From IMG/VR virus record IMGVR_UViG_3300012929_000004: a stretch of 56,831 nt of DNA; one strand, given 5' to 3'. A model generated the notes under the pieces. It was given only the letters and a program-made list of their open reading frames with translations. It searched no databases and was not told the DNA's origin. Shown here in pieces: positions 1-56,831 of the stretch; position 1 is the first letter of the stretch; the number at the start of each line of letters is the position of its first letter. Position numbers and translations under genes: made by a program. The DNA comes from a virus.

Positions 1-123
1 CTTTTTTAGGGAGCCTATTTTCGACTATAGCGAGAATAATCAGGCGTGCCGGCTCGGTTGGTTGTGCGGCAAATTCCGCAGGGCTCTCACCTTATTTATG
101 GAATAATCATGATTCGATATCCA
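1..123. repeat. Terminal direct repeat, left copy (identical to 56709..56831)
   Basis: Compared by eye: cttttttagggagcc...gattcgatatcca is the same string at both ends of the window. Confidence 0.9.
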
Positions 124-21256: not shown

Positions 21257-21274
21257 TGGTTGGAGGGCGTCAAC

Positions 21275-21772
21275 ATGACAATGACAGTAGCACTTAAAAA
21301 AGATTACATAGACGCTAATGCTGAAAAGTTTTTGTCAGGATTTACTGTTGGGAATGATAAAGATTGCTGGGAATGGCAGGCGGGCTGTTATAAAGATGGT
21401 TATGGCGGCATTAATATTAAAGGACAAAAAAAAAGAACCGTTAAAGCTCATCGATATTCGTATGAATACTTTATTGGACCCATTCCTCAAGGTATGTGCG
21501 TCATGCACAAGTGCGACAACCCTAAATGTATTAACCCATCTCATTTATCCGTCGGAACACATTTGCAAAATATGCGCGACCGAGATAGCAAAAGAAGAAG
21601 TCCGTTTGGTGAAAACCATCCCAACGCTAAGCTGACCGAAGCTAAGGTTTTAGAAATTAAATCATTATTAAACGATGGCGAATCTTTGATGTCGGTCTCT
21701 TTAAAATACGGGGTCCACAAATCTCATATTTACAGCATAAAGTCTGGTTTAAGATGGAGCCACGTATCATGA
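21275..21772 (+). CDS. HNH homing endonuclease (HNH_3-like with C-terminal HTH)
   Basis: DCWEW...GYG...HRYSYE...MHKCDNPKCINPSHLSVGTHLQN. SD ggaggg precedes the ATG at 21275. Confidence 0.85.
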   Translation: MTMTVALKKDYIDANAEKFLSGFTVGNDKDCWEWQAGCYKDGYGGINIKGQKKRTVKAHRYSYEYFIGPIPQGMCVMHKCDNPKCINPSHLSVGTHLQNMRDRDSKRRSPFGENHPNAKLTEAKVLEIKSLLNDGESLMSVSLKYGVHKSHIYSIKSGLRWSHVS

Positions 21773-24307: not shown

Positions 24308-25078
24308 ATGGGATTTTTTGGAGATTTATGGGGCGGCGTGAAGTCAGGTCTTAGCTCACTTGCACCTATTGCAGGGACTCTCTTGGGTGGCGCTTATGGC
24401 GGACCCGGCGGGGCTATGATGGGCAGTCAATTAGGAGGCGCTGTAGGCAATCTGTTTGGCGGTGGTGGCCAACAAGAGCAACCACAACAACAACAGCCGC
24501 AACAACCTAATGTAGGTGGCGCTATCACTAATGGGATGAATAGCTATATCCCTCAGCAGATGCAGAACCAGACTTTTGGGCAAATGGGGCAAAATATGCA
24601 GAACCGGGCTGGTAATGCGATGAATCGCTTCCTGGGCCCTGAAGCCGGACAAGCAGGTCTTGGGCAAGCGCTTAGTGGTGCAGCTGGGCAGTTCTTAGGG
24701 AATCGCTTTGGGGGAATGATGCCTCAGGGTTGGCAGAATCAGAGCCTTGGTGGCTTAACACAGCAAGCGGGTGATTATGCGCAAAGCATGATGCCACAAA
24801 TGCCTCAAGGTGGTGGTTTTGGCGGTGGCCAAGGCTTCCAAGAAATGGGCGGCAATGCCATGAACAGCATGATGCCTTCTGAGTTTGGTCAAGCGGGCGT
24901 TGGTAATGCGATGTCTAATGCCATGGGTAACTATATGGGCAACCGTATGGGCGGTCGTGGTGGTCGTCGCGCTTATGCTGCTGGTGGTTATGCGCAGGGT
25001 GGTCATCCGATGCCTAATCTTCGAGAGATGATGGAGTTGCTTCCGCCCCCACAACAAATGCCCATGATGGCGCACTAA
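24308..25078 (+). CDS. G/Q/M/N-rich low-complexity protein (internal virion/ejection candidate)
   Basis: Strong SD aaggagaagg. Ends with YAAGGYAQGGHPMP, a motif shared with 7214..8302. Confidence 0.6.
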   Translation: MGFFGDLWGGVKSGLSSLAPIAGTLLGGAYGGPGGAMMGSQLGGAVGNLFGGGGQQEQPQQQQPQQPNVGGAITNGMNSYIPQQMQNQTFGQMGQNMQNRAGNAMNRFLGPEAGQAGLGQALSGAAGQFLGNRFGGMMPQGWQNQSLGGLTQQAGDYAQSMMPQMPQGGGFGGGQGFQEMGGNAMNSMMPSEFGQAGVGNAMSNAMGNYMGNRMGGRGGRRAYAAGGYAQGGHPMPNLREMMELLPPPQQMPMMAH

Positions 25079-27608: not shown

Positions 27609-29814
27609 ACGTGAAGAGTTAATAGCTGAGCTAGAGCGCCGAAAAGGTGTTACTGCGCCTGTCGCTAATTCTGAACCTATTGGGCGACGCGAACAGCTAT
27701 TACAAGAATTACAGAAGCGTCAACAAACAGAATCTCAGCAAATCCCACAAGAGCAACAGCCTGTTCCTGGAATGCAAGAAGCTAGAGAAGTTGCTGGCGG
27801 CTCTTTGCAACCGGGTGCGTTGGAAGATTTCTTGAAAGGTTTATTCGTAACTGCACCAGCATCCGCGTTTGATGTTTTGGGAAAAACTTTTGGTGAACAT
27901 CTAAAACATAATATGCCTCTTAGAAAAGCCCAAGAAGCTATAGGCAGCCAATTGCCAGCTATTCAGGCAGGTCCACCACTCGCTGAAAGGGCGGCCGCTA
28001 AGTTTCATGAACTCACAGGCACTCAAGCACCACTTCCTGGCACAGAGCCAAGCATTGCGCAAACAACGGGTGAATTCTTAAGCCCGCTTCCTGGTGTTAC
28101 AAAGCTTCAAGCAGGCATGAAAGGGTTGAAGGCAGCTGGTAAAGCAGTGGCAGGCGCACTTGGGGCTTCTGCTGCGCTGCACACGTTGCCCAATATTACT
28201 GAAGAAGGCAGCGTACCGGAACAGATAGGCAAAGCATTACTGGGAAGCGTTACAGGGCGTGGAGCGCTTAATGTTGCTAAGCATACAGTTCCCGTGGTCG
28301 CTCATCCTTTGCAAAGCTTAAGGAAAGGCGCTGCGCATATTGCATCGCTTGGGACCGAGCCAAACGTAGAGGCATTAAAGCTTGCTGAAAAGCATGGTGT
28401 TGAATTACCGCTGAATGTAGGGATGCGCTCGAAAGCGTTGAACGCAACATCAAACTTTTTATCAAAGAGTGTATTCGCTAGCAAAAAATTTACCGATAGT
28501 TTCAATCGGTCTAATAAGTCTATGCTAGACGTGGTTAAGAAAAATATTGATATATCAGGAGCAGAACCATCGACAGCGTCGCAGAATTTTAAGGATTTTT
28601 TATCTCAAGAACAAAAAGATGCAAAAAAGTTAGTAGACGTTGAATATGGAAACGCCAGGAAATTATTAAACAAGGGTGACTCGGTAATTCCTAAGCATAC
28701 GATTGATTCTATTCATGCGATGAAAGAAATTCTGACACGTGACATTCAATCGCCAGCTACCAAGAAAGTAGCGAGTTATGTGATTAAGCTAGCAGATTCT
28801 TGGGGCATCGCACCAAAAGGGGCAAAGCTTGCAAAAGGGTGGGAAAAGATTGCTGATGACCCAAAATTAATGGGTCAGCTCATTGATTCTTTTGAAACTA
28901 AAGCCAAAGCTATTCCAATAGAAAAACTAGAAGGCGTACGGTCGGAACTTGGTAATATTTTAGGCCATAAGCAAGAAGTATTGGGAATGGAGAACTGGCT
29001 TAAGGGAATCAGAAATTCTATTACAAAAGATTTCGAATCATCCGCTAATAAGCCATATGTTCAAGAGATTAAGAAGGCTAATAATTTCTATCGCGAATCA
29101 TATGCAGCTAGATTTAAAGAAGATTTAGCTGAGAGCATCCTGACTGGTGATAAGCCTTTATATACTTATGGAAAGTTATCAGGACCCAATGCTGCCAATA
29201 ATCTTGATATCTTAGAGCGCGTAGCGGGGCAATCACCAAAAGCTAAAGAAGTGCTTGACGCTCTCAAAAAAGCTAAAACCAGAGAAATATTTAATAGTGC
29301 ATTTACTGAAGAAGGTATAAAGCTTGGTAATTTTGTGCGACAGTTCGAAAAGTCTGAAGTCAATCAGGAATTACTGAAAAAACTTATGGGTCCAGAGCCT
29401 TATAAAAATTTATCCGAACTATCAAAAGTCATGCGCGAACAGATAGACTCCGGTAAAGACATGTTAAATACCTCATCCACTGCTTATGTGGCTTCAGACT
29501 TAAGCATTCTGAAAAAGTTTGGGACCGAAACAACTGCCGCTTTAATAGGACTGTTTTCGTCACATCCTTCAGTCGCTATAGGTGCGCTAGGGGCCGCAGC
29601 TACAAAAATAGCTGTCCCTAACTTAATTAGCAGATTGATGGCTGACCCAAAATTCGTACAACAAGCTAGAGCTTTTGCGATTGCTAGAAAGAACGGCAAC
29701 ATGAAACATTCAGGACAATTGATGGAAAATCTAGGCAAGCATGCCAATGAGATTCTAAGAGCGTCCGCATATCAACCAGGAAAAGAATCTAAGGAGAATA
29801 AGAACGATGAGTAG
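27601..29814 (+). CDS. Large internal virion protein candidate
   Basis: 737 aa and helical, with A/K/L-rich composition. No enzymatic motif was recognised. Confidence 0.6.
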   Translation: MNRREELIAELERRKGVTAPVANSEPIGRREQLLQELQKRQQTESQQIPQEQQPVPGMQEAREVAGGSLQPGALEDFLKGLFVTAPASAFDVLGKTFGEHLKHNMPLRKAQEAIGSQLPAIQAGPPLAERAAAKFHELTGTQAPLPGTEPSIAQTTGEFLSPLPGVTKLQAGMKGLKAAGKAVAGALGASAALHTLPNITEEGSVPEQIGKALLGSVTGRGALNVAKHTVPVVAHPLQSLRKGAAHIASLGTEPNVEALKLAEKHGVELPLNVGMRSKALNATSNFLSKSVFASKKFTDSFNRSNKSMLDVVKKNIDISGAEPSTASQNFKDFLSQEQKDAKKLVDVEYGNARKLLNKGDSVIPKHTIDSIHAMKEILTRDIQSPATKKVASYVIKLADSWGIAPKGAKLAKGWEKIADDPKLMGQLIDSFETKAKAIPIEKLEGVRSELGNILGHKQEVLGMENWLKGIRNSITKDFESSANKPYVQEIKKANNFYRESYAARFKEDLAESILTGDKPLYTYGKLSGPNAANNLDILERVAGQSPKAKEVLDALKKAKTREIFNSAFTEEGIKLGNFVRQFEKSEVNQELLKKLMGPEPYKNLSELSKVMREQIDSGKDMLNTSSTAYVASDLSILKKFGTETTAALIGLFSSHPSVAIGALGAAATKIAVPNLISRLMADPKFVQQARAFAIARKNGNMKHSGQLMENLGKHANEILRASAYQPGKESKENKNDE

Positions 29815-31270
29815 TTTCACTAATATTTTCAGTGGCTCACTTTTAACTCCTAGCTTCTCATTTTATGAAGCCATTACGCTAAGCTCTAATTTGCAACTTT
29901 CTTGGAATACTGATTTTGGACCAAATCCTAATGTGGTAGCGGCTATTATGCAGATAAGTCCTACCGCTAATGGTTACAGTCTTATTATGCCTAATGCATT
30001 AAATATCTCGGTTGGGTTTAGCTTTTCTATTAATAACAAAACAAGATTCTCATTTAAATTGGTCGCTAATGATGGTGCGACTATTATTGATACCATTACT
30101 GGCCCTAGTTTTTCAACCTTCTATTTAACTAGCAATTCTTCTGTAAATGGTACATGGGAGCTAGTCCCTTATGGCGTTGGAACAGGAAGCGTAACAAGCG
30201 TTGCCATATCTGCCGGCGCTACATCGGGCAATATTGTTATAGGGGGCTCACCTATTACTTTAGCTGGCACTATCACCTTAGCGCTTGGTGCAGACTTAGG
30301 GGCTCTAACAGGCTTAGGTGCTTCCACGGGAATAGCGGTTAGAACCGCCGCTAATGGCACATGGACAACAACATCCATGATGGTTGGAATGCCGAATCAA
30401 GTAGCCATTGTAAATGGTAATGGAGTTGCTGGTCCTCCTACTTTTAGCCTTGTGCCAACATTGGCCAATCTTAGCTCTATCTCGCTAAATTCAGGCGGGA
30501 ACATAGATATTGGTGTAACTCCTAATGTGATTACAGCCAATAATAGCGGTGGCGGCCTTACGCTTTCAGCAAATGCTATTGGGGGGAATGTTTTTATTAC
30601 CTCTCCCGCTGGCAGTATTCTCTTAAGCGCTAGCAGCGCAGGCACAACTGCAGCTGCCTTCAGTTTGATAACCTCTGGAGCTTCCTTATCTTTTTCAGGC
30701 ATTGCGGCTAATGTTTTTATGAATGCCGCTTCGACAACCAGTAGTTACAGCATTAAACTACCAACAGGTCCAGGCTCAGTTAACCAAGTACTACAAATCA
30801 CTTCTGTGGCCTCAAGTACCTTGCAAACATCATGGATATCGGCGGGCTCTGGTACCGTAACGGCAATCACCGCTGGAACTAACCTAACCGGCGGCACGAT
30901 TACCACCACAGGAACCATTGCGCTAGCGTCTGCGTTAACTGGGCTAACATCAGTCTCTACCAATACGCTTATATCCTCCCCTGCCGCTTCTGGAGCCGCT
31001 GGTCTAGTCTTAGGGGTTCCTTATCAGAATTCATTAGGCTATGACGTTACATTGCAGGTTTATTTCGACATTACCTCTAATACTAGCGGCGTTATCAGTT
31101 GCGGTGTTGGCCCTACTAATACACCTCCACAACAGGTAATTGTGACCGGTAGCACAACAGTAGGTTACCTGCCTGTTTCAGTATACTTGCCAAATAACTA
31201 CTACGCGCTTATTAGTACTACTGGTACTATCACGATTGCCATCCGAGGACAGAATGTAACGCCTGTTTAG
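29807..31270 (+). CDS. Tail fibre-like protein
   Basis: Its VTAITAGTNLTGGTITTTGTIALASALTGLTSV module is shared with 16734 and 19781. Composition is S/T/G/A-rich and beta-type. Confidence 0.7.
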   Translation: MSSFTNIFSGSLLTPSFSFYEAITLSSNLQLSWNTDFGPNPNVVAAIMQISPTANGYSLIMPNALNISVGFSFSINNKTRFSFKLVANDGATIIDTITGPSFSTFYLTSNSSVNGTWELVPYGVGTGSVTSVAISAGATSGNIVIGGSPITLAGTITLALGADLGALTGLGASTGIAVRTAANGTWTTTSMMVGMPNQVAIVNGNGVAGPPTFSLVPTLANLSSISLNSGGNIDIGVTPNVITANNSGGGLTLSANAIGGNVFITSPAGSILLSASSAGTTAAAFSLITSGASLSFSGIAANVFMNAASTTSSYSIKLPTGPGSVNQVLQITSVASSTLQTSWISAGSGTVTAITAGTNLTGGTITTTGTIALASALTGLTSVSTNTLISSPAASGAAGLVLGVPYQNSLGYDVTLQVYFDITSNTSGVISCGVGPTNTPPQQVIVTGSTTVGYLPVSVYLPNNYYALISTTGTITIAIRGQNVTPV

Positions 31271-31279
31271 GAAGCCTAA

Positions 31280-32002
31280 ATGTCAGCAACGAAAGAAGAA
31301 ACAGAAAAGGCAATCCAGCTAAGAAAAGCTAAGTCTCTGCATTCGGGGAAAGCAGTTCGTATCGATAAGTATCCAGAAAACTGGCGCAGAATCCCCTATG
31401 AAAATGCAATACACCATAATGCCATTGGTGATTTGGCCAGACTAGCTTTTAATTATAGAAGAAATTCTGATGTCCCTCTTCAGCGAAATGTTGCCTCCAT
31501 AGGATTCTACGATAAACGCATGGCCCCTCCCATTACTATCCAGGCAGCTTATAGCGGTGGCAATAAAGAAATGTCACAGCATGCTGAACGTATAGCGCTA
31601 TTGCATGCTTTGGAGGCCGCCGCTGGGAAGCCCCTGTCTGCGGCACATGCAGTTAATATTCCTCATTTCAATGACCTAAGCGCCTATGCCAATCAGCTAA
31701 ACAATATTCCTATCGTAAGAGCTTATACCGAGCGTATCCCCTGCCAGCTACCTTTTTCTGCGACCACCCAGAACTGTCATCAGTTCTTACAGCAAGCATT
31801 ACCGCCCCATACGGGAACCGAAAGAAGCGTCCATCACTCAATACCGCTAGACATATCACATGAGATGGAAGACAATCTAATGAAACAATTAGAGAGAGCC
31901 GGGGCGTCCTATATGGACGTTTTAGCCATATTAGCCCCGCAGTCTCTATCAAAATATGCCCCATCAACTGCTCACCATAAGAAAAAAGATGTTGACTCCT
32001 AA
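31280..32002 (+). CDS. Hypothetical protein with deaminase-like zinc signature (HAE ... PC-x10-C), function unproven
   Basis: SD aggaag. H101-A-E103 sits in SQHAERIALLHAL. P154-C155...C166 sits in YTERIPCQLPFSATTQNCHQF, preceded by the beta-like stretches NVASIGFY and ITIQAAYSGG. Confidence 0.6.
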   Translation: MSATKEETEKAIQLRKAKSLHSGKAVRIDKYPENWRRIPYENAIHHNAIGDLARLAFNYRRNSDVPLQRNVASIGFYDKRMAPPITIQAAYSGGNKEMSQHAERIALLHALEAAAGKPLSAAHAVNIPHFNDLSAYANQLNNIPIVRAYTERIPCQLPFSATTQNCHQFLQQALPPHTGTERSVHHSIPLDISHEMEDNLMKQLERAGASYMDVLAILAPQSLSKYAPSTAHHKKKDVDS

Positions 32003-32019
32003 ATTATCATGTATATACT
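31992..32019 (+). promoter_or_regulatory. Sigma70-like promoter TTGACT-N16-TATACT for the accessory island
   Basis: Overlaps the last codons of 31280..32002 and lies 44 nt upstream of the ATG at 32063. Confidence 0.45.
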
Positions 32020-32062
32020 ATAACCTTTGCAATGACAGGCAAGTTATGTTACAGGGGGCCGT

Positions 32063-32686
32063 ATGCAGAGTCAGGAAGCGATAGCAGCGCAGATAGTTCA
32101 GCTGAGCACTAAGGAAAAGCTCTTAGAGAAAATATTGTTAGCTATGCAAGCAAAGAAAGAATTTGAGCTGGCTATCGTAGGTGAGAATCGAGAATTTTCT
32201 GACAAGGTTTATATGCTAGAGCGATTCTTTGAGCTATTAAACTTAAAGGACCATGCCTGGCACTGCAATCCCAATAATCGATGCCCTAGCATTCAGTTAC
32301 CCTTAGCGCTTAAGCGTTATCGTGATTATTGTCATTATTGGCAGTTCACTTTATATAAAATGCATAACTCTGGCTACTTTCCGCACAGGATTACCGGTGA
32401 GCCCAAGGGTCTCATTTGCAATGATTTTCCGATAAGGCACGATTATCCTTATGAATATATGGACACAGATGATAATCGCCTATATTTACAAAACCTACTG
32501 GATGCTAATAGATTTGGGCTGGCACATAATGCTTCTGAAATTCAGATGCTAGATGAAAGGCTGGCCTCTTATGAAGGGCAATTATCTGGGTTGGATGCCC
32601 CTAAGGCATTAATTTTTACCAGGCGTTGCTCATTATCGTCATCTTTCTCAATGCAGGAGATAAGCACATGCAAGATAAAGCCGTGA
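32063..32686 (+). CDS. Coiled-coil protein, island paralogue family 1 (SGYF motif)
   Basis: SD aggggg. LEKILLAMQAKKE and HNSGYF...ITG match the next gene. Confidence 0.6.
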   Translation: MQSQEAIAAQIVQLSTKEKLLEKILLAMQAKKEFELAIVGENREFSDKVYMLERFFELLNLKDHAWHCNPNNRCPSIQLPLALKRYRDYCHYWQFTLYKMHNSGYFPHRITGEPKGLICNDFPIRHDYPYEYMDTDDNRLYLQNLLDANRFGLAHNASEIQMLDERLASYEGQLSGLDAPKALIFTRRCSLSSSFSMQEISTCKIKP

Positions 32687-33324
32687 TGGAATTTCAGCTA
32701 GATTTACAGAAAAGGCGTGGGGCGATTGAGAAGAAGATTTTAGCCCTAAAGGCTGAGATTCGTGAACTCATCAAGCAAAATGACGCGCATCGTGAAAAGG
32801 TATGGTTAACTGAAAATATTAAGACGTTTTTAGCGATTGCGTTGCACCCTATGGGTCATGACAGAACCGTTTACGCAATGATGAATCATGGTAATAATTG
32901 CAATATTCTGCACAACCTTTTAAGACAAGCTTATGAGTCTGGATATTTTGACAAAGAGTATATCTGGAAAGAGGCCGATAAACATATGGAACATTCGATT
33001 ACCGGTTGTTTTCGTTATAACTGCGAGCACCCTAATGAGAGGCAAAGCAGATATTTTGATTTGATTCTAAATATCTCAAACACTGAAATCACAACCAATA
33101 ACCATAAGATTGCTGTCTTAAAAGATGCAGCAATGGCACATAGGGTTGAGCTCAATGTATTGATAACCAGGCTGCATAATTATAAGCGCGAGCAACCCAC
33201 AGGCGTTACGTTACCGCTTATTTTTTCATCTACGATACGCAACTTAGAGACTTACCGGCCTGCGCCCCTAAAGACAGGGGTTATGTTACCCGTTAAAAAA
33301 CCACGACACTCATTAATCATTTAA
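32668..33324 (+). CDS. Coiled-coil protein, island paralogue family 1 (SGYF motif)
   Basis: ATG at 32668 with SD aggaga. The track start at 32626 was rejected. Carries IEKKILALKAEIRE and YESGYF...ITG. Confidence 0.6.
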   Translation: MQDKAVMEFQLDLQKRRGAIEKKILALKAEIRELIKQNDAHREKVWLTENIKTFLAIALHPMGHDRTVYAMMNHGNNCNILHNLLRQAYESGYFDKEYIWKEADKHMEHSITGCFRYNCEHPNERQSRYFDLILNISNTEITTNNHKIAVLKDAAMAHRVELNVLITRLHNYKREQPTGVTLPLIFSSTIRNLETYRPAPLKTGVMLPVKKPRHSLII

Positions 33325-33333
33325 GGAGCCATT

Positions 33334-33756
33334 ATGTTTAACGAATATAGAATGCGACTAGCTAATCCCAAAGGGGCGCAAGCTCCAAAATTGCCAGCAA
33401 TTGCTGAAGAGGCGAGAGTAGACTTGTCTGTGCTAATTGAGCGATTGACTAGATTTATGGATAGAAAAGAAGTTATCCGAACAGAGCGTCACAAGGCTGA
33501 AAACGAATACGCTGAGAAATTTTCTGCTTATGAAGCTTTGTTGCAGACTAGTCTTTACAGAGACAATACCAGAGAAGGTGATGCTTTGCATGGAGTATTA
33601 AGGTTTTTTAATCATAATATTAACACCATGAGAACGCGAGAACTTGAGTTAACTGAAGATATCGCCCAAACCAAGGCTGTTATACAGAATTTAAGGGATA
33701 TTGCTTTAGCGAAGGAATTAACTCCTAAGGTGTCATTGGCCCCCGTAAATCGATAA
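33334..33756 (+). CDS. Coiled-coil protein, island paralogue family 2 (N-terminal MFNEY)
   Basis: SD aaggag, 140 aa. Confidence 0.6.
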   Translation: MFNEYRMRLANPKGAQAPKLPAIAEEARVDLSVLIERLTRFMDRKEVIRTERHKAENEYAEKFSAYEALLQTSLYRDNTREGDALHGVLRFFNHNINTMRTRELELTEDIAQTKAVIQNLRDIALAKELTPKVSLAPVNR

Positions 33757-33765
33757 TAGGTGAAT

Positions 33766-34446
33766 ATGTTTACTCAATATGGCCCGTCAAGGGTAAATAA
33801 AGCTACGCGACAAGTGTCGCCATTTTCAGACTTTCTGAATTATACAGAAAAGCTGAAACGTTCAACCGAGAAGAAGGATGCCTTAAAACCAACCAATCTA
33901 GAGGAGAAACTCATGTTTAATCAATACAAATCTCAGACATACTTAGCATCTCTGTCAGCCACCACGACACAAGTTGACCCATTAGATTCTGAGGATTTAA
34001 AGAGAAGGTTACGCAATTGTCTGGATAAGAAGCAAGCATTAAGAGCGCAGCGAGAAATGACTGAAGAGCTTAGGAATCAACATTTTGCTAAGTTTAAGGG
34101 TGTAGAAGCCGTCAGGAAAGGCGCTGAATTTGGCAGTAAGGATTACGCCTTGCATAGTGATGAGGTAAATCTATTAAAGGCTCAGGACGCTTGCTATGAG
34201 AACGAAATCAACACCTACAAAAGCCGAGAAGAATCGCTTAACACAGACATAGACCAGTTAATTAAGATTCTGAATATAGCGCACTTATTAAAGCCTGCGG
34301 AAAGAGTTGCAGAAAATCCGCTCGCTAGCCCCGCCTCTTCAACTAGAAGTCTTGCTACTCAAGATTTTGTTAGTCTCGAAGATGGGGAAACGATAAAAGA
34401 CGTGATTAACATTGCTAAACATTTAAATCAGAGCTGCATGCTGTAA
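33766..34446 (+). CDS. Coiled-coil protein, island paralogue family 2 (N-terminal MFTQY; internal MFNQY at 33913 with strong SD)
   Basis: The track start at 33760 is GTG, with an ATG at 33766. An internal ATG at 33913 is preceded by gaggag. Confidence 0.6.
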   Translation: MFTQYGPSRVNKATRQVSPFSDFLNYTEKLKRSTEKKDALKPTNLEEKLMFNQYKSQTYLASLSATTTQVDPLDSEDLKRRLRNCLDKKQALRAQREMTEELRNQHFAKFKGVEAVRKGAEFGSKDYALHSDEVNLLKAQDACYENEINTYKSREESLNTDIDQLIKILNIAHLLKPAERVAENPLASPASSTRSLATQDFVSLEDGETIKDVINIAKHLNQSCML

Positions 34447-34676
34447 TGCTTACGCAGTATAGAGCTAGGCTGATAGAAGCGCTCAAAAAGGAAAAGAGCG
34501 CTTCTAACCGCATCTTAAAGAGAGCGGCAGTATTGCATATGGAGTGGCGCAAGATTGAGCAGCAATTACTCATCTCTCAGCGTAATGCTCAGTTTTTAGC
34601 TGAGCGTTTAGCGGTGGTTGAAAAGCATGATTCTGGGGAACCTATCGCTCATCCAAAAGGTAAGCATTTGAAATAA
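34446..34676 (+). CDS. Coiled-coil protein, island paralogue family 2 (N-terminal MLTQY)
   Basis: TAATG coupling. Its 3' end overlaps the convergent RNA ligase gene by 35 nt. Confidence 0.5.
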   Translation: MLTQYRARLIEALKKEKSASNRILKRAAVLHMEWRKIEQQLLISQRNAQFLAERLAVVEKHDSGEPIAHPKGKHLK

Positions 34677-35670
34677 CCTTAAAGGTTAGGCTGGAATCAT
34701 TAGACTTAAATACCAAACCTTCACGCAATGAATCACCATTAGCAAAATTCAGGATATCCTGGATAGTATCGAATTGGCTCAATTTTTGATAATAGCCCAC
34801 TACCGGCACATGTTTCAGGTTTGTAAAGTCAATCACATGCCCTGCATGCCGTAGGCAGGGCGGCAAGTATGTTTGCCTATCAATATCCCAGATATCAAAC
34901 AGGAAGAAATCTGGCTCTTTCATATTATGTGGATTTGCATGATTACTTTGTATGCCGGGACCAATCACCTCACCTTGCAAGGCTATGTTTTTACCACAGG
35001 ACCGCAACAAGTCTTCTATTCCATATTGTCTAGCTAGTTTCCATAGGGTATTGGTATCGTCTTCTAATAGCTCTAAATTGCGGCCACAGACGCCGAACTT
35101 ACCATCGTTAAGGTAGTAGGTGCATGAGGTGCCATCTAGCTTAACAGTGACCTCAAAATCCTCATCACAGTCCTTTATTCTGTACCATAGGTTCTGGACG
35201 CGCCCTTGGTCTGTCTTGCGGATAAATGACGGGAAGTAACCTTTAACTTTACCCGCTAATTGCGCAGGAACCGGTGGGTCCCAGAGTACTACGCCAAGCA
35301 GTTCTGTGACGTTATCATCTTGACACATGGTGGCGCCAATTTCTGGACAGTCGTAGATATAGCCTTCTGGCAATATGCTCACTGGCAGCGCTAACCCTTG
35401 CGACAGCGTTCCTCTGAGTTTAATAGTCCTTAACTTAAAACCTTCCTTATCGCCCATCTTGCGATAAGAGCTCTTACGCAGGAACTCAAACTCTGGCTTT
35501 ATGGGTAAGAAGCTATCAATTTCAAAGTAAACACATAAATCACCGATATGGAATTCGCCCTTTTTAGCAATACATTGCCAACCATCAATCGTGATTTTTT
35601 CAATCATGTCGGCATTGAATATTGGGTCTACCGCTCTAACGGTCCTAATAGAAGCTAACTTTCGGTCCAT
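34642..35670 (-). CDS. ATP-dependent RNA ligase (DRB0094-like family candidate)
   Basis: The N-terminal module LASIRTV..VDPI.NADMIE...IDGWQCIAKKGEF..GDLCVYFEIDSFLP is followed by the nucleotidyltransferase lysine motif VTVKLDGTS. Confidence 0.75.
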   Translation of the reverse strand: MDRKLASIRTVRAVDPIFNADMIEKITIDGWQCIAKKGEFHIGDLCVYFEIDSFLPIKPEFEFLRKSSYRKMGDKEGFKLRTIKLRGTLSQGLALPVSILPEGYIYDCPEIGATMCQDDNVTELLGVVLWDPPVPAQLAGKVKGYFPSFIRKTDQGRVQNLWYRIKDCDEDFEVTVKLDGTSCTYYLNDGKFGVCGRNLELLEDDTNTLWKLARQYGIEDLLRSCGKNIALQGEVIGPGIQSNHANPHNMKEPDFFLFDIWDIDRQTYLPPCLRHAGHVIDFTNLKHVPVVGYYQKLSQFDTIQDILNFANGDSLREGLVFKSNDSSLTFKVISNAYLLDER

Positions 35671-35678
35671 AATTATTC

Positions 35679-36188
35679 CTAATGTTTAACAGGCTCGTCG
35701 TCATCGCGCATTGCTTTTAAGTTTTTAAGCAAGTCTTTTAGGTTATCTTTCACATTGTCCATCGTTATTACCGCCCCTTCCTGAGTTTCTTCTTCAGATA
35801 TATCACCAAAAATACTGTCATGCGTTATATTCACTATAGAGCGCATAAACTTCATCTTAAAGGCAACATTATAATCCTTAAGATATTTTAATCTATTTCC
35901 TAGAAAATGCTTAAAGAAAGTCAATTCAAAAACAGGGTCAAAGTGGTCCCTATCGATTAAGAATGGGAAAAGGCAGTAAGATGAAAATTCTCGAGCCTTA
36001 ATGCTACGCTCAGATAATACATGCTCTTTTAACTTAATATCTTCTATAGCCTCAGCTTCTTTATTAGCCAGTGCAATAATACGCTGCGCAATAGCCATTA
36101 ATGCCCTATAGTGCGGCTCAGCCTCTTTCTCGAAGTCTTTAAAATCAACACCTATTGTAATCCCATCTTCATCATTTTTACCAATCAT
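35679..36188 (-). CDS. Hypothetical protein
   Basis: 169-aa ORF with ATGA coupling. Confidence 0.55.
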   Translation of the reverse strand: MIGKNDEDGITIGVDFKDFEKEAEPHYRALMAIAQRIIALANKEAEAIEDIKLKEHVLSERSIKAREFSSYCLFPFLIDRDHFDPVFELTFFKHFLGNRLKYLKDYNVAFKMKFMRSIVNITHDSIFGDISEEETQEGAVITMDNVKDNLKDLLKNLKAMRDDDEPVKH

Positions 36189-36430
36189 CTACCTATCCCC
36201 TTATCTTTCCAATTCCAAAACCCATACATATGCAGCACTATAGATGTAAAACAAAAGAATCCTTGACTGTATAGTCCAATGGTTAAATCTCTATAGCACC
36301 AATAAATACAGGTGATGGTCCATATAACAAAACATAAGCGCTCCCCTTTAACATTCAACCATCTGCCATACTTCCCTAATAAGCTAAAAGCAGTGTCAAA
36401 GGCTTCAGCGATTATATTGATATCAACCAT
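36185..36430 (-). CDS. Small membrane protein (PnuC-like fragment?)
   Basis: 81 aa with two hydrophobic segments and W/Y-rich composition. The family guess is weak. Confidence 0.55.
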   Translation of the reverse strand: MVDINIIAEAFDTAFSLLGKYGRWLNVKGERLCFVIWTITCIYWCYRDLTIGLYSQGFFCFTSIVLHMYGFWNWKDKGIGR

Positions 36431-39117: not shown

Positions 39118-39140
39118 AAACAAGAAATCACAAGTGTCAA
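39113..39140 (-). promoter_or_regulatory. Leftward early promoter TTGACA-N16-TATACT
   Basis: Read on the minus strand, about 45 nt upstream of the ATG at 39066. Confidence 0.5.
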
Positions 39141-42404: not shown

Positions 42405-43298
42405 ATGACAATTTTTCAGGACAAGAAGCGCTTCGTTAACATTGACCATATTCGCTTGATAGAAAAGATTAGCTCCAACCATCTAACCAGCGCCCAAAAA
42501 TACATTCTTGAAAAAATGGCGTCCTTTGGCCACGAGGACGGAACTTCAATTTATCCCTCAGTTTCATATATTGTTGAACTGACTAACTTCTGCGAAAGAA
42601 CTGTTCGTTCAACCATCAAGTTTTTAATTAAATCCGGATTTCTCATCTTGATAAAAAAGGGAAATCCATCAACCAATAGTCCGGCTGAATATAATTTGAA
42701 TATCCAACTAATAAAAGATAAGCAACGTAAATCTACACTTACCCCTGGTGCAGCAAATGCACCAGCTGTGAATATACCTGGTGCAGGAGATGCACTAGCT
42801 ATAATTACACCTGGTGCAGGAGATTCCGTACACAGTGTGTTAACCAGTAGCAAGAGATGCACCAGCCCTGGTGCAGGAGATGCACCCAAACAAGTACTAA
42901 CAAAAAGTATTTCTAATAAACAAGAACAAACAACGCGCGGGCCCGCGCTCTCTGGGGCTGTTGTTGCTTCTGGAGATTTAAAAGAAGGCTTGGTGGGGCG
43001 ACTGGTGAGTACGGGCCTGGATAGGCGAGTGGCAATAGCTCTCTTTGAGCAACACGGCTACAACCGCGTCAAGGCCAACCTCGAGGCAAGCCTTGCAAGA
43101 AGTCCACCACCTGACAATCTACCTGCATGGATTCGGAGCGCTATCGAGAAGGATTACCATGGTGGAACATTGTCGGGGCGCGCCGACAATCAATTCAGCC
43201 CTCGGCTCTCACGCCAGGCAAGCGGTAAAACCAGAACGCTATCTGACGTATTGGCAGAAGCGGTTAAGCGTGGAGGTGACCCCAATGAGCGACGATAA
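42405..43298 (+). CDS. Replication initiator (lambda O-like; N-terminal winged-helix, iterons inside the gene)
   Basis: ATG at 42405 with SD agagg. The track start at 42123 was rejected. N-terminal HTH-like LTSAQKYILEKMASFG...YPSVSYIVELTNFCERTVRSTIKFLIKSGFL. The C-terminus carries DNLPAWIRSAIEKDY. Confidence 0.7.
   Translation: MTIFQDKKRFVNIDHIRLIEKISSNHLTSAQKYILEKMASFGHEDGTSIYPSVSYIVELTNFCERTVRSTIKFLIKSGFLILIKKGNPSTNSPAEYNLNIQLIKDKQRKSTLTPGAANAPAVNIPGAGDALAIITPGAGDSVHSVLTSSKRCTSPGAGDAPKQVLTKSISNKQEQTTRGPALSGAVVASGDLKEGLVGRLVSTGLDRRVAIALFEQHGYNRVKANLEASLARSPPPDNLPAWIRSAIEKDYHGGTLSGRADNQFSPRLSRQASGKTRTLSDVLAEAVKRGGDPNERR
42744..42885. repeat. Five about 19-bp iterons, consensus CCTGGTGCAGGAGATGCAC (putative origin of replication)
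   Basis: Copies start at 42744, 42777, 42810, 42844 (degenerate) and 42867. Each contains the inverted pair GTGCA-N5-TGCAC. An A/T-rich tract (42886-42934) and the palindrome GCGCGGGCCCGCGC (42935-42948) follow. Confidence 0.75.
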
Positions 43299-44004
43299 CG
43301 ACGGCCTAGACGACTTCGACAAGACCCTGGCCAGCCTAGGTGCCGTCCCTCCCAAGGAGACGCCTCCATGGACCGTGGTGCCGTCTAAGCCCTATGGCGA
43401 CGCAGAGCTCGCGGCAGACATGGCCATCATGCTTAACGGACGCCTCACGGTAACGGACGCTATGGGCCTGATTCGCCAGTATGGGCCCTTGAAAGCACAA
43501 CTCGCTGCCAAACGTCTCGCTAAGGGAGACTTCGCCAGTATCGAAAATCTACCTATGGCGCTGCGTTCGGCTATCGAGAGCGGCCATCAGGTGCCTGGGG
43601 AGCAGAAAACAGCGCCACGGACTCAAAATCAGGCAAATTCATCGTCTAATGGGCAAAGTTCAAACACTCCCGGCAGCCACCATCCTTCCGCGGCCGAAAG
43701 TCAGTCGTCAGAGATAGATAAATTGCGTAAAGGTTGCATGTGGAACGTTGCTGAGAACCGAGAATGGTATTTAGGCCTACCGATGGCTATCCGAGCTATC
43801 GTGGTATCAGATGCTTTGCATAAGTGGCCGTCTCTTGAGCAGTATGCGGATAAGGAAGGTTATGACATGCGCACCAATGACTTTGCGCATTCAGATATGT
43901 TCCGGATTCACTTCTCGCGGGTTATCAATGCGATTCGCTTTGACAATGTGAGCCGGGGGTTGCGCAGCCAGATAGACAGAGGGGATGCGGGGGAGATTGA
44001 GTAA
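43285..44004 (+). CDS. Replication-module protein (lambda P-like position; function unknown)
   Basis: ATG at 43285 with SD ggaggtg, overlapping the initiator stop. Carries ENLPMALRSAIESGH, a module duplicated from the initiator C-terminus. Confidence 0.6.
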   Translation: MSDDNDGLDDFDKTLASLGAVPPKETPPWTVVPSKPYGDAELAADMAIMLNGRLTVTDAMGLIRQYGPLKAQLAAKRLAKGDFASIENLPMALRSAIESGHQVPGEQKTAPRTQNQANSSSNGQSSNTPGSHHPSAAESQSSEIDKLRKGCMWNVAENREWYLGLPMAIRAIVVSDALHKWPSLEQYADKEGYDMRTNDFAHSDMFRIHFSRVINAIRFDNVSRGLRSQIDRGDAGEIE

Positions 44005-44545: not shown

Positions 44546-44587
44546 TTGCAGTTACATGTTGCATATACTATAACCTTGTGCTAAGAT
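44546..44587 (+). promoter_or_regulatory. Promoter region for tRNA-Glu (TTGCAT-N17-TGcTAAGAT, or TTGCAG-N17-TATAAC)
   Basis: Two overlapping alignments. The extended -10 version puts the transcription start about 5 nt before the tRNA. Confidence 0.4.
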
Positions 44588-50162: not shown

Positions 50163-50297
50163 TTCCTAGTCTCCTGTTTGGTTGCTGATAATGTAAAGAT
50201 AGACCATTATTGATGCAGATGCAACACTTTTTTAATAAATATTTTGATATGTCATTAGTTGGCTGTCATTATATGTAGCGTCTGTTAGGGGGTGGTA

Positions 50298-50768
50298 ATG
50301 TTAAATAGGATGTCTCATGATATATTTTTAGAGAGAATTATCAAGAAAGAAGAGACGGATGGATGCTGGGAATGGACTGGAGCTATTAGTTCCGGCGGTT
50401 ATGCTTTATATAGTGCTGTCTACATACATCGTTATTCTTATGTTTATTATAAGGGGAAAATCCCGCTGGGAATGGTTGTTACTCATTCATGCTTTAATTT
50501 AAGATGTGTCAATCCAGCACATCTGTTTTTTTGCACTAAGCAGGACTCAGCAATTAGGATGGTTCGCGCTGGTAGGATTCCTGGCATAAAAGACGGTGAA
50601 TCATCCCTGGGATTTGCTGCTAGAAAACTAACGAGCAGAGATGTTTTGGCTATAAGAAAAAGATTATGCAACGGGGAAAGTCGTCGTTCAATAGCGAGGA
50701 GGTATAGAGTAGCTAAGGCAACCATTGATAAAATTAAGCATTCTAAAACTTATAAAGAGATAGTTTAG
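50298..50768 (+). CDS. HNH endonuclease (HNH_3-like with C-terminal HTH), adjacent to terminase
   Basis: GCWEWTG...GGYA...HRYSY...THSCFNLRCVNPAHL. Paralogue of 21275..21772. Confidence 0.8.
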   Translation: MLNRMSHDIFLERIIKKEETDGCWEWTGAISSGGYALYSAVYIHRYSYVYYKGKIPLGMVVTHSCFNLRCVNPAHLFFCTKQDSAIRMVRAGRIPGIKDGESSLGFAARKLTSRDVLAIRKRLCNGESRRSIARRYRVAKATIDKIKHSKTYKEIV

Positions 50769-56463: not shown

Positions 56464-56492
56464 TTGACAGTGCATATACCATGCCATATACT
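56464..56492 (+). promoter_or_regulatory. Sigma70-like promoter TTGACA-N17-TATACT
   Basis: Consensus -35 with optimal spacing, in the non-coding stretch before the genome junction. Confidence 0.5.
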
Positions 56493-56708: not shown

Positions 56709-56831
56709 CTTTTTTAGGGAGCCTATTTTCGACTATAGCGAGAATAATCAGGCGTGCCGGCTCGGTTGGTTGTGCGGCAAATTCCGCAGGGCTCTCACCT
56801 TATTTATGGAATAATCATGATTCGATATCCA
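56709..56831. repeat. Terminal direct repeat, right copy (identical to 1..123)
   Basis: Same 123-nt string as the window start. Confidence 0.9.

What the first reader, a model, noticed from the sequence alone, without database searches (positions are those of the whole stretch)
31280..34676. Separately promoted six-gene accessory island at the end of the late operon (best candidate for an undescribed system)
After the last fibre gene come six plus-strand genes with no structural-protein features.
- One protein has a deaminase-like zinc signature (31280..32002).
- Two paralogues form family 1 (32063, 32668). They share (L/I)EK(K)IL.A(M/L).A, (N/E)SGYF, ITG and a C-terminal coiled coil.
- Three paralogues form family 2 (33334, 33766, 34446). 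They share an N-terminal M-(F/L)-(N/T)-(E/Q)-Y and coiled coils with a ...(A/E)KF...EA(L/V) block.

A good promoter (TTGACT-N16-TATACT, 31992-32019) sits just before the paralogues, so they can be expressed independently of late transcription, in the manner of a moron. The island runs head-on into the RNA ligase gene.

A putative nucleic-acid-modifying enzyme next to an expanded family of helical proteins, at a locus where phages usually carry host-interaction cargo, suggests an effector/anti-defence or exclusion module. I cannot match it to any named system.
Basis: partly seen in the sequence, partly recalled or inferred. Interest (0 to 1): 0.7.

Follow-up and report, generated by a model that had tools for sequence, protein, structure and literature searches.

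The report
Orphan deaminase plus promoter-driven ORFan genes
The end of this soil phage's late operon carries a divergent APOBEC/XOO_2897-like zinc deaminase gene, followed by a separately promoted block of small helical proteins known only from one sister phage; it is a real accessory region, but it is not shown to be one six-gene system.

Summary
The six plus-strand ORFs are real. Metagenome gene callers place them at the same coordinates, and all six proteins are soluble.

- **Gene 1 (31280-32002):** a deaminase-fold protein. H101-x-E103, C155 and C166 are invariant in 11 homologues. The AlphaFold model (pLDDT 77) matches mainly APOBEC, Rib2 and CDA deaminases. It lacks strand 5, as the XOO_2897 clade does, but it scores below the Pfam threshold.
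- **Missing partner:** in 6 of the 8 contexts with DNA (three related phages and plasmid-like contigs), this deaminase sits next to a co-diverging RI-type LRR gene. That partner is absent here and in the sister phage.
- **Promoter:** the promoter-like site lies inside the 3' end of the deaminase gene, so it can drive only the five downstream genes. It is conserved in the sister phage (0 of 2000 shuffles reach its alignment score).
- **Family 1** (two tandem paralogues in each phage) has moderate support.
- **Family 2** is supported for two genes. The 76-aa ORF shares only eight N-terminal residues with it.
- **Database matches:** none to any Pfam, PHROG, PADLOC, NCBIfam or PDB family, and no compositional anomaly.

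Verdict: this is an accessory, b-region-like locus made of two units. Its function is inferred, not shown.

The parts
29807..31270 (+). Tail-fibre-like gene (487 aa). It is the last recognisable virion gene and forms the left boundary of the region.
   Evidence: The N-terminal 126-135 aa match annotated tail or tail-fibre proteins at 30-37% identity. The C-terminus is homologous to the ORF upstream of the deaminase in sister contig L012.
31280..32002 (+). Stand-alone zinc-deaminase-fold protein (240 aa). It starts 9 nt after the fibre gene and is the last gene of the late operon. Catalytic candidates are H101/E103 (31580-31588), C155 (31742-31744) and C166 (31775-31777).
   Evidence: H101, E103, R104, E151, R152, C155 and C166 are invariant in 11 homologues. 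Six of 11 members give weak Pfam XOO_2897-deam hits. The AF2 model has pLDDT 77 and pTM 0.76. Top Foldseek hits are APOBEC3, Rib2, CDA and ADAR deaminases.
31992..32026 (+). Sigma-70-like promoter: -35 TTGACT, 16-nt spacer, -10 TATACT, then a conserved ATAACCT. It overlaps the last codons and stop codon of the deaminase gene.
   Evidence: Scores 10/12. It sits at the only real gap (60 nt) in the last 10 kb of the rightward operon. It is conserved upstream of the first family-1 gene in sister phage L011: alignment score 19 against 9.2 +/- 1.5 for shuffles, 0 of 2000 reaching it. The same 17-mer occurs at 44560 upstream of tRNA-Glu.
32063..32686 (+). Family-1 paralogue a (207 aa): a soluble, helical ORFan.
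   Evidence: hhalign against the w218/r221 profile gives P = 4e-4 over the N-terminal 105 aa, including NSGYF. The four-sequence alignment is collinear and includes a C-terminal L(I/L/V)F(S/T) motif (PLxFS in three of the four). There are no family hits and no TM segment.
32668..33324 (+). Family-1 paralogue b (218 aa).
   Evidence: Full-length match to the L011 221-aa protein, E = 2e-9. The profile search of 5.8 billion clusters found only members of these two phages.
33334..33756 (+). Family-2 paralogue a (140 aa; begins MFNEY).
   Evidence: BLASTP against the 226/228-aa protein gives E = 3e-7. It aligns with the L011 157-aa protein, which begins MFNQF.
33766..34446 (+). Family-2 paralogue b (226 aa). 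It has an N-terminal 49-aa extension that also begins MFTQY. An internal ATG at 33913 (MFNQY) is preceded by GAGGAG.
   Evidence: Homology to w140 begins at the internal MFNQY. The sequence itself shows these features.
34446..34676 (+). 76-aa ORF (begins MLTQY) with a TAATG stop/start overlap. Its membership of family 2 is not demonstrated.
   Evidence: It is called as a gene on the metagenome contigs. It gives no BLAST alignment to family 2. Only the first 8 residues align (P = 0.016). No counterpart was seen in L011.
34642..35670 (-). RNA ligase gene. It is the last gene of the leftward early operon and forms the right boundary. It converges on the 76-aa ORF and overlaps it by 35 nt.
   Evidence: Pfam PHA02142 OB-fold 4e-39 and RNA_ligase 6e-28.

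Best explanation
The locus is a lineage-specific accessory region. It occupies the position of lambda's b region, between the rightward late operon and the convergent leftward early/recombination operon. It consists of two separate units rather than one six-gene system.

**Unit 1: the deaminase gene**
- It is the terminal gene of the late operon and is co-transcribed with the tail fibre.
- It encodes a divergent, catalytically intact, zinc-dependent deaminase of the helix-4 division. This is the APOBEC/XOO_2897-like type, truncated after helix 4.
- Inferred: it hydrolytically deaminates cytosine in single-stranded DNA or RNA and acts as a toxin or effector on nucleic acid that is not the phage's own.
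- It belongs to a small family that is otherwise a mobile two-gene cassette with an RI-type LRR protein, probably its binding partner or inhibitor. This phage and its sister have lost the LRR gene.

**Unit 2: the paralogue block**
- Its layout is promoter, family-1a, family-1b, then family-2 in one to three copies.
- It is driven by a host-type sigma-70 promoter that is conserved in the sister phage.
- Inferred: it is expressed early or independently of late transcription.
- It encodes fast-evolving, soluble, helical ORFan proteins. The most likely role is binding host or phage factors (takeover, anti-defence or exclusion), but this is unproven.

**Shown versus inferred**
- Shown: the gene structure, the deaminase fold and catalytic residues, the LRR linkage elsewhere, the promoter conservation and the paralogy.
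- Inferred: the substrate, the target, the timing of expression and any link between the two units.
For: **Deaminase**
- The exhaustive HMMER search found five real homologues, and a profile search added five more.
- H101-x-E103 and C155...C166 are invariant in all 11.
- Six of 11 members independently hit Pfam XOO_2897-deam weakly.
- AF2 with the family alignment gives pLDDT 77 and pTM 0.76. The element order is b1-b2-a2(HxE)-b3-C..C-a3-b4-a4, with no strand 5.
- The top Foldseek hits in both PDB and BFVD are mostly CDA-fold deaminases.
- XOO_2897-clade enzymes deaminate ssDNA cytidine (bioRxiv 10.1101/2023.05.21.541555).

**LRR pairing**
- An adjacent LRR_6 gene is present in L007, L013, L015, L017, L018 and L022.
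- Pairwise identities of the LRR and deaminase proteins correlate at r = 0.94.
- No LRR gene is present in the window or in L011/L012.

**Two units**
- The promoter lies inside the 3' end of gene 1.
- It is conserved in L011.
- In L011 a minus-strand 370-aa gene separates the deaminase from the block.
- Fibre-then-deaminase synteny is conserved.
- Two family-1 genes followed by family 2 occur in both phages.

**Accessory status**
- There are no structural or known-family hits.
- There are no matches in GenBank phages.
- None of the six proteins has a TM segment.
Against: **Deaminase assignment**
- It rests on sub-threshold Pfam scores (16 bits against a 27-bit cut-off).
- The Foldseek statistics are marginal (best E = 3e-3, TM 0.34-0.43).
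- The model comes from an alignment of only 11 sequences.
- Profile comparisons with APOBEC3A and TadA were not significant.
- No activity, substrate or target is known.

**Biological plausibility**
- A late-expressed ssDNA deaminase without an inhibitor would be expected to damage the phage's own replicating DNA. Either a neutraliser exists, which would favour the single-system rival, or the substrate is different.

**Promoter and expression**
- Promoter function and timing are untested.
- No terminator separates the units, so read-through could express all six genes together.

**Search coverage and comparative depth**
- Families 1 and 2 were not searched with the exhaustive HMMER library. 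Their apparent restriction to two phages may partly reflect limited sensitivity.
- Only one informative relative (L011/L012) exists for the block.
- The host is unknown.
Confidence: 0.4

Rival explanations
1. The six genes form one toxin-neutraliser system. The deaminase is the toxin. One or more of the downstream helical paralogues have replaced the lost LRR protein as its inhibitor or immunity factor. The module would work like a toxin-antitoxin, exclusion or abortive-infection unit, or as a weapon with self-protection.
For: - Elsewhere the deaminase is almost always paired with an adjacent, co-diverging protein-binding partner.
- LRR immunity proteins (Imm-LRR) are a known class in polymorphic toxin systems (PMC3482391).
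- Exactly the two phages that lack the LRR gene carry the helical families next to the deaminase.
- An unneutralised nucleic-acid deaminase would threaten the phage's own DNA.
Against: - The co-occurrence comes from a single lineage (two sister phages), so it may be plain synteny.
- In L011 an opposite-strand gene lies between the deaminase and the paralogues.
- The conserved promoter excludes the deaminase.
- The paralogues match no known immunity family.
- Immunity-less deaminases of this division are documented (PMC3239186).
Confidence: 0.15
2. The genes are eukaryote-directed effector cargo. On this reading the phage infects an intracellular or amoeba-associated bacterium. The deaminase, and perhaps the helical proteins, would be secreted into the eukaryotic cell. 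This would resemble the eukaryotic association module of Wolbachia phage WO.
For: - Plasmid-clade homologues lie on AT-rich (27-31% GC) plasmid-like contigs beside RI-type LRR genes and a weak Sel1-like gene.
- The ParA on one such contig is closest to those of Piscirickettsia salmonis plasmids, at 44-46% identity.
- The related phage L013 carries the LRR-deaminase pair.
- Immunity-less helix-4-division deaminases are typical of endosymbionts and their prophages (PMC3239186).
- Plasmid-clade proteins have long low-complexity tails that end in basic, NLS-like clusters. Reading these as NLS-like rests on memory only.
Against: - The host is unknown.
- The virion genes resemble those of phages of free-living aquatic Alphaproteobacteria and Cyanobacteria.
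- No integrase or other lysogeny function was recognised among the Pfam-scanned ORFs of the complete genome. A lytic phage has little time for effector delivery.
- The window itself has no LRR, ANK or other eukaryote-like repeat protein.
- The deaminase sits in the late operon.
Confidence: 0.12
3. The proteins are virion-internal or ejected proteins. Some or all of the six would be made late, packaged and injected with the DNA, as with T4 internal proteins, Alt, or P1 Dar. Conserved N-terminal peptides would serve as packaging or processing signals.
For: - The deaminase directly follows the fibre gene in the late operon in both sister phages.
- Phage-clade deaminases have an N-terminal helical extension of 25-40 aa that the plasmid clade lacks.
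- Otherwise divergent proteins share short N-terminal peptides: MF(N/T)(E/Q)Y four times in the window, and MSVP..E(M/I) in P0002, P0006 and the L011 370-aa protein.
Against: - In L013 the deaminase lies outside the virion module.
- Homologues occur on plasmids.
- The paralogue block has a host-type promoter, which suggests expression independent of late transcription.
- The short N-terminal similarities are not statistically significant.
- There are no structural-family hits.
Confidence: 0.13
4. There is no functional module. The region would be a string of unrelated, dispensable ORFans, and the deaminase would have an ordinary nucleotide-metabolism role (dCMP/dCTP-deaminase-like) or be inactive.
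For: - The region's composition does not differ from the rest of the genome.
- No known-system hits were found.
- Sigma-70-like matches alone are at chance level across the genome.
Against: - The catalytic residues are invariant across phage and plasmid homologues at 21-37% identity.
- The protein does not match the dCMP_cyt_deam-type Pfam families. Its closest matches are toxin-type and APOBEC-type deaminases.
- The block architecture and its promoter are conserved in a sister phage whose orthologous proteins are only 24-37% identical. This argues for selection.
Confidence: 0.2

Closest known systems
XOO_2897-like toxin deaminases (Pfam PF14440; helix-4 division with AID/APOBEC and OTT_1508 clades; Iyer et al. 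2011, PMC3239186)
   Same: - It has an HxE motif at helix 2 and Cys ligands flanking an insert between strand 3 and helix 3.
- It is truncated after helix 4, with no strand 5 (one search compared).
- It is the only Pfam family hit, recurring in 6 of 11 members.
- Stand-alone, immunity-less versions of this division are known on mobile elements and prophages.
   Different: - All scores are below the Pfam gathering threshold.
- The Cys ligands are spaced C-x7-11-C across the family (C-x10-C in the window protein).
- The family has its own invariant R104 and E151-R152.
- The conserved Glu in the insert is missing from the window protein.
- It is not fused to RHS, PAAR or secretion domains, and has no SUKH immunity gene.
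- Its conserved neighbour is an RI-type LRR protein instead.
Phage morons / lambda b-region accessory genes
   Same: - It lies between the tail-fibre end of the late operon and the convergent leftward early/recombination operon.
- It has its own sigma-70-type promoter.
- Its genes are ORFans, dispensable-looking and fast-evolving.
   Different: - No terminator was found and there is no compositional anomaly.
- No integrase or other lysogeny function was recognised.
- The block is conserved in the one sister phage available rather than being variably present.
Eukaryotic association module of Wolbachia phage WO, including the WOCauB3 gp45 APOBEC-like deaminase
   Same: - It is a helix-4-division deaminase carried as phage cargo at the margin of the virion module.
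- Relatives of the gene travel with repeat proteins (LRR) that are typical of eukaryote-interacting bacteria.
   Different: - The host is unknown.
- The window has no eukaryote-like repeat domains.
- The protein is small and stand-alone rather than the C-terminus of a giant toxin.
- There is no evidence of lysogeny.
Imm-LRR immunity proteins of polymorphic toxin systems (Zhang et al. 2012, PMC3482391)
   Same: In the wider deaminase family, an LRR-only protein is tightly linked to a toxin-type enzyme and co-diverges with it.
   Different: - Imm-LRR proteins are reported next to T5SS toxins and in polyimmunity loci, not next to deaminases.
- Here the LRR gene lies upstream or divergent rather than downstream.
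- It is absent from the window itself.
T4 internal-protein (IP) loci
   Same: It is a cluster of small, rapidly diverging paralogous genes that keep a short conserved N-terminal peptide (MF(N/T)(E/Q)Y).
   Different: - Nothing shows packaging or proteolytic processing.
- The resemblance is recalled from memory and rests on 5-8 residues.

Membership tests
CDA-fold zinc-dependent deaminase superfamily | [H/C/D]xE motif at the N-terminus of helix 2 (zinc ligand plus catalytic Glu) | tested here: met
   H101-A-E103 is invariant in 11 homologues. It sits at the start of predicted helix 102-114.
CDA-fold zinc-dependent deaminase superfamily | Two Cys zinc ligands (PCxxC) at the end of strand 3 and start of helix 3 | tested here: inconclusive
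   C155 (after strand 145-152) and C166 (first residue of helix 166-173) are invariant. Their spacing is x7-x11 across the family (x10 in the window protein) rather than x2.
CDA-fold zinc-dependent deaminase superfamily | Three-layer alpha/beta/alpha fold similar to solved deaminases | tested here: inconclusive
   In PDB, 19 of the top 20 Foldseek hits are deaminases: APOBEC3G/C/A/B/F and Rib2. BFVD also gives mostly deaminases, plus RadC/JAB-type hits. However, the best E-value is 3e-3 and TM-scores are 0.34-0.43.
CDA-fold zinc-dependent deaminase superfamily | Hydrolytic deamination activity | not testable with these tools
   This needs enzymology.
XOO_2897-like deaminase clade (PF14440) | Score at or above the Pfam gathering threshold (27 bits) | tested here: not met
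   The window protein scores 16.1 bits (E = 0.013). The best family member reaches E = 0.0034. Six of 11 members hit weakly.
XOO_2897-like deaminase clade (PF14440) | Truncation after helix 4, with strand 5 absent (Iyer et al. 2011, Table 1) | tested here: met
   In the AF2 model, strand 180-188 is followed by helix 193-218 and then a disordered tail. There is no fifth strand (one search compared).
XOO_2897-like deaminase clade (PF14440) | Conserved Glu in the insert between strand 3 and helix 3 | tested here: inconclusive
   The insert is present in all members. A Glu is present in 8 of 11 members, but not in the window protein, P0002 or P0005.
XOO_2897-like deaminase clade (PF14440) | Polymorphic-toxin context: an RHS/PAAR/T2SS/T6SS/T7SS trafficking part and a SUKH-type immunity gene | tested here: not met
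   The proteins are stand-alone and 222-356 aa long. Neighbours are LRR, ParA and phage genes, and no SUKH gene is present.
Phage moron (autonomous accessory transcription unit) | Own promoter upstream of the cargo genes | tested here: met
   TTGACT-N16-TATACT lies at 31992-32019. It is conserved upstream of the orthologous block in L011, with 0 of 2000 shuffles reaching its score. It covers genes 2-6 only. Function is not shown.
Phage moron (autonomous accessory transcription unit) | Own terminator downstream | tested here: not met
   There is no terminator-like site between 34446 and the convergent RNA ligase gene. The two overlap by 35 nt.
Phage moron (autonomous accessory transcription unit) | Nucleotide composition distinct from the neighbouring genes | tested here: not met
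   Island genes have GC 0.40-0.45 and GC3 0.34-0.46. Both fall within the range of the late and early genes.
Phage moron (autonomous accessory transcription unit) | Present or absent among otherwise syntenic relatives | tested here: inconclusive
   Only one syntenic relative (L011/L012) is available, and it has the block. More distant relatives are not syntenic.
Toxin-immunity / toxin-antitoxin pair | Adjacent cognate neutraliser that binds the toxin | not testable with these tools
   The LRR neighbour found elsewhere is absent here.
Phage WO-type eukaryotic association module | Phage of an obligate intracellular bacterium whose cargo carries eukaryote-like domains | tested here: inconclusive
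   The host was not identified. The window proteins have no eukaryote-like repeat domains. Only relatives carry LRR genes.

The most novel reading that the evidence does not exclude
The LRR-deaminase pair is a previously undescribed mobile toxin-inhibitor cassette shared by plasmids and phages, possibly with a role in defence, anti-defence or addiction. In this phage lineage the LRR inhibitor would have been replaced by two families of helical proteins expressed from their own early promoter. The six genes would then form a new kind of self-protected nucleic-acid-editing weapon, used by the phage against its host or against competing elements.
Probability: 0.12. Interest if true: 0.75.

Novelty: new variant of a known kind. 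Interest (0 to 1): 0.45.

Why it matters
- **A new deaminase clade.** If the 240-aa protein is an active polynucleotide cytosine deaminase, it defines a small, compact clade near XOO_2897 and APOBEC. The clade travels between plasmids and phages with a dedicated LRR partner.
- **Why that is of interest.** It would bear on phage-host conflict, because a phage would be carrying a mutator or toxin. It would inform the evolution of APOBEC-like enzymes from mobile bacterial toxins. It could also be a source of base-editor scaffolds with a natural protein inhibitor.
- **The paralogue block.** The promoter-driven helical block is a clean candidate for early host-takeover or anti-defence proteins in an uncultured soil podovirus group.
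- **Caveat.** None of these functions is shown. At present the locus is a well-delimited accessory region with one credible enzyme.

Tried and rejected
**Searches that found nothing**
- Megablast and tblastn of the region and of three island proteins (240, 226 and 218 aa) against GenBank phages gave no match.
- PHROGs, PADLOC and NCBIfam gave nothing, or only coiled-coil noise such as JetC, LmuB and SMC.
- PDB sequence-profile searches for all three families gave nothing significant.
- IMG/VR scans with the deaminase, the 737-aa protein, family 1, the SSB and the plasmid-clade profile found no relatives.
- The GTDB genome scan with the plasmid-clade deaminase profile found nothing.
- A portal profile found only a pelagiphage-like contig in a Pelagibacter MAG, which says nothing about the host.
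- The metagenome scan anchored on the conserved SSB returned one 1.4-kb fragment.
- Rfam found only the two tRNAs.

**Analyses that failed or were uninformative**
- Single-sequence AF2 of the deaminase failed, with pLDDT 35.
- All strain variants of the window phage are identical in the island, so no dN/dS test was possible.

**Ideas rejected**
- Lysis cassette: no TM segment and no lysin domain.
- Tail-fibre chaperone for gene 1: the catalytic motif is conserved, and homologues lie on plasmids away from any fibre gene.
- Recent horizontal acquisition judged from composition.
- The 76-aa ORF as a demonstrated family-2 member.
- Families 1 and 2 being related to each other.

Full report
**What the window is**

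The first and last 123 nt of the window are identical. It is therefore a complete circular assembly of about 56.7 kb. Identical contigs occur in soil metagenomes, including JGI Ga0137403_10000380 and Logan SRR5882724.

The phage is tailed. It has a portal, a large terminase and an SU10-type adaptor. These are only 31-41% identical to those of cultured phages such as pelagiphages HTVC023P/027P, Roseobacter CRP-901/902 and Caulobacter RW. No recognisable integrase was found among the ORFs scanned.

A rightward late operon runs from about 4.6 kb to 34.7 kb. It meets a leftward operon head-on. That operon carries ERF, an SSB-like protein and an RNA ligase, and it starts near an 11/12 sigma-70-like site at 39140. 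The finding therefore occupies the position of lambda's b region.

**Checking the observation**

- **ORFs.** All six are present at the stated coordinates. Metagenome annotation calls them identically. Five of the six have Shine-Dalgarno-like sequences; the 76-aa ORF starts in a TAATG stop/start overlap with only a weak one.
- **Flanking genes.** The N-terminal 130 aa of the upstream 487-aa protein match tail or tail-fibre proteins. The downstream convergent gene is an RNA ligase.
- **Solubility.** None of the six proteins has a transmembrane-like segment.
- **Composition.** GC and GC3 do not differ from the rest of the genome.
- **Spacing.** From 24.3 kb to 34.7 kb the genes are packed with gaps of -19 to +9 nt. 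The single exception is the 60-nt gap at 32003-32062.

**Gene 1 (31280-32002)**

*Homologues.* Word-indexed searching found only the protein itself. The exhaustive HMMER search of 1.84 billion representatives found five true homologues, the best being P0002 at E = 8e-29. A profile search added five more.

*Sequence evidence.* Across all 11 sequences, H101, E103, R104, E151, R152, C155 and C166 are invariant. Six of the 11 independently give weak hits to Pfam XOO_2897-deam and to no other recurrent family. All are below the gathering threshold.

*Structural evidence.* AlphaFold2 with this alignment gave pLDDT 77 and pTM 0.76. The element order was b1-b2-helix(HxE)-b3-Cys-insert-Cys-helix-b4-long helix, followed by disorder. 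Foldseek top hits in PDB and BFVD are mostly CDA-fold deaminases, with a few RadC/JAB-type proteins: APOBEC3G/C/A/B/F, Rib2, CDA, ADAR and phage dCMP deaminases. The statistics are marginal, with a best E of 3e-3 and TM-scores of 0.34-0.43.

*Placement.* Iyer et al. [quoted passage not shown] They note immunity-less versions in endosymbionts and prophages (PMC3239186). The model fits that description. XOO_2897-family enzymes showed ssDNA cytidine deamination in a base-editor reporter (bioRxiv 10.1101/2023.05.21.541555).

I treat the protein as a new divergent clade near XOO_2897 and APOBEC, not as a Pfam-level member.

**Where the deaminase family lives**

- **Sister phage (L011/L012).** The closest homologue, P0002, directly follows a homologous fibre gene here as well.
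- **More distant relative (L013; portal 49%, TerL 43%).** P0005 sits just upstream of the terminase genes, next to a divergent LRR gene.
- **Other members.** They lie on AT-rich contigs (27-31% GC). One is plasmid-like, with ParA, a resolvase and ParE/Phd. Its ParA is closest to those of Piscirickettsia salmonis plasmids at 44-46% identity.
- **The LRR neighbour.** In six of the eight contexts with DNA, the gene next to the deaminase encodes an RI-type LRR-only protein, with Pfam LRR_6 E-values down to 1e-37.
- **Co-divergence.** These LRR proteins are homologous to one another. Their pairwise identities track those of the deaminases, with r = 0.94 over 15 non-independent pairs.
- **The exceptions.** The window and its sister phage have no LRR protein anywhere.

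The evolutionarily conserved partner of this enzyme is therefore an LRR protein, not the helical families in the window.

**The paralogue block**

*Family 1*
- The window pair is not significant by BLASTP (E = 0.77).
- The 218-aa protein matches the L011 221-aa protein over its full length (E = 2e-9).
- A profile of those two aligns the 207-aa protein over 105 residues, including the NSGYF/ESGYF motif (P = 4e-4).
- The same profile aligns the L011 243-aa protein at a C-terminal PLxFS motif (P = 1.7e-3).
- The four-sequence alignment is collinear.
- I accept family 1 as probable, with two tandem paralogues in each phage. The duplication therefore predates the split of the two phages.

*Family 2*
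- The 140-aa and 226-aa proteins are homologous (E = 3e-7).
- The homology begins at an internal MFNQY, which is preceded by GAGGAG.
- The L011 157-aa protein (MFNQF...) aligns weakly.
- The 76-aa ORF shares only MxxQYRxR.
- Families 1 and 2 are unrelated to each other.

*Wider searches*
- A profile search of 5.8 billion clusters with family 1 returned only proteins of these two phages.
- Neither family matches Pfam, PHROGs, PADLOC, NCBIfam, PDB or GenBank phages.
- Only the deaminase received the exhaustive HMMER search. Family 2 was never searched against the large protein collections.

**The promoter**

- **The site.** TTGACT-N16-TATACT is at 31992-32019.
- **Chance level.** Such matches are not enriched on their own: 18 sites scoring 10/12 or better were found genome-wide, against 19 expected.
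- **Position.** It sits at the only gap in 10 kb of operon.
- **Shared -10 element.** It has the same -10 hexamer (TATACT) as the two best sites in the genome, at 39140 (-) and 56464 (+).
- **Shared 17-mer.** It shares TG(T/C)ATATACTATAACCT with the region upstream of tRNA-Glu. Two matches were found against 0.15 expected, although the pattern was derived from these sites.
- **Conservation in the sister phage.** In L011 the region upstream of the first family-1 gene reads TTGACA-N17-TATAAG-CTATAAC. The local alignment scores 19 against 9.2 +/- 1.5 for shuffles, with 0 of 2000 reaching it. It is also the best-scoring place in the whole locus.
- **Why this is notable.** The flanking proteins are only 24-37% identical, so this conservation argues for a functional promoter.
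- **What it can drive.** Its -35 hexamer lies inside the last codons of the deaminase gene. It can therefore drive only genes 2-6.
- **Separation in L011.** A minus-strand 370-aa coiled-coil gene separates the deaminase from the block.
- **Terminators.** No intrinsic terminator was found on either side, so late read-through into the block is also possible.

**Interpretation**

The best-supported picture is two units.

1. **The deaminase.** It is the terminal late gene. It encodes a catalytically intact toxin-type or APOBEC-like deaminase that has lost its usual LRR partner.
2. **The paralogue block.** It is an ancestral block of promoter, family-1a, family-1b and family-2, encoding soluble helical ORFans. 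It is probably expressed from a host-type promoter.

Substrate, target and timing are all inferred.

An uninhibited nucleic-acid deaminase made during phage replication is awkward. This keeps alive the rival in which the helical proteins have replaced the LRR as neutralisers, making the locus a single system.

The LRR, Sel1 and AT-rich-plasmid contexts, together with published precedent, keep alive a eukaryote-directed effector reading. The unknown host, the lack of lysogeny genes and the late-operon position all count against it.

A packaged or ejected-protein reading fits the late-operon position and the shared short N-terminal peptides. It does not fit the plasmid homologues or the independent promoter.

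**Verdict**

- **The observation** is largely correct, with two overstatements: the third family-2 paralogue, and 'six genes separately promoted'.
- **The interpretation** ('accessory host-interaction module') is partly supported. The 'anti-defence or exclusion system' part is not tested by anything found here.
- **Novelty** lies in the deaminase clade and its LRR linkage, which is a new variant of known toxin deaminases. The region as a whole is of a familiar kind: phage accessory cargo.

Noticed in passing
L007 6175-8416; L013 9140-10816; L015 3-1660; L017 422-2813; L018 678-3045; L022 2-1546: The deaminase-like gene sits next to a homologous RI-type LRR-only gene in six independent contexts, either divergent or co-directional upstream. 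Pairwise identities of the two proteins correlate at r = 0.94. This looks like an undescribed two-gene cassette shared by plasmid-like contigs and phages.
   Followed up: partly
window 1-123 and 56709-56831: The 123-nt terminal overlap is exact, so the window is a complete circular assembly of about 56.7 kb. No integrase was recognised among the ORFs scanned.
   Followed up: partly
window 55197-55898 (+): This 233-aa ORF has a C-terminal J domain (Pfam DnaJ, E = 7e-13). That is unusual cargo for a phage.
   Followed up: no
window 32010-32026 and 44560-44576 (+); also 39140-39113 (-) and 56464-56492 (+): A recurring promoter-like element has -10 TATACT. The two + strand copies share the exact 15-mer ATATACTATAACCTT, and the second lies just upstream of tRNA-Glu (44599). 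This may be the phage's early-promoter class.
   Followed up: partly
window 33766-33915 and 33913: The 226-aa family-2 gene starts with MFTQY. It contains a second MFNQY at an internal ATG preceded by GAGGAG, and homology to the 140-aa paralogue begins there. This may be a fused remnant of another paralogue or an internal start giving a 177-aa isoform.
   Followed up: partly
L011 3-26 (+), L011 1886-1909 (-), L015 773-796 (+): Three proteins share an N-terminal octapeptide: MSVPYEEM, MSVPRDEM and MSVPTSEI. Two are deaminase homologues and one is the unrelated 370-aa coiled-coil protein. The L011 deaminase homologue and a family-1 protein also share a C-terminal QIINP(D/N)N. Neither similarity is statistically significant and both are unexplained.
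   Followed up: no
L011 797-1909 (-): The sister phage has an acidic 370-aa coiled-coil gene on the opposite strand between the deaminase and the paralogue block, and it lacks the RNA ligase gene. The window has the ligase but not this gene.
   Followed up: partly
window 21260-21772 (+) and 50292-50768 (+): Two HNH_3 endonuclease ORFs are inserted in the virion and packaging modules. The second also carries an HTH domain. They look like homing endonucleases.
   Followed up: no
window 36185-36430 (-): This 81-aa membrane protein has a weak PnuC/NMN-transporter-like hit. It is 59% identical to its counterpart in the distant relative L013, far more conserved than its neighbours.
   Followed up: no
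P0004, P0007, P0009, P0010, P0012, P0013 C-termini: Plasmid-clade deaminases carry low-complexity tails of 100-150 aa that end in basic clusters such as PPAKKRRP or PPKSKPKPSPKH. These resemble nuclear localisation signals, but that reading rests on memory and was not tested.
   Followed up: no
window 24308-25078 (+) and 43001-44000: GC content is locally high (0.54-0.55) against a genome background of about 0.43.
   Followed up: no
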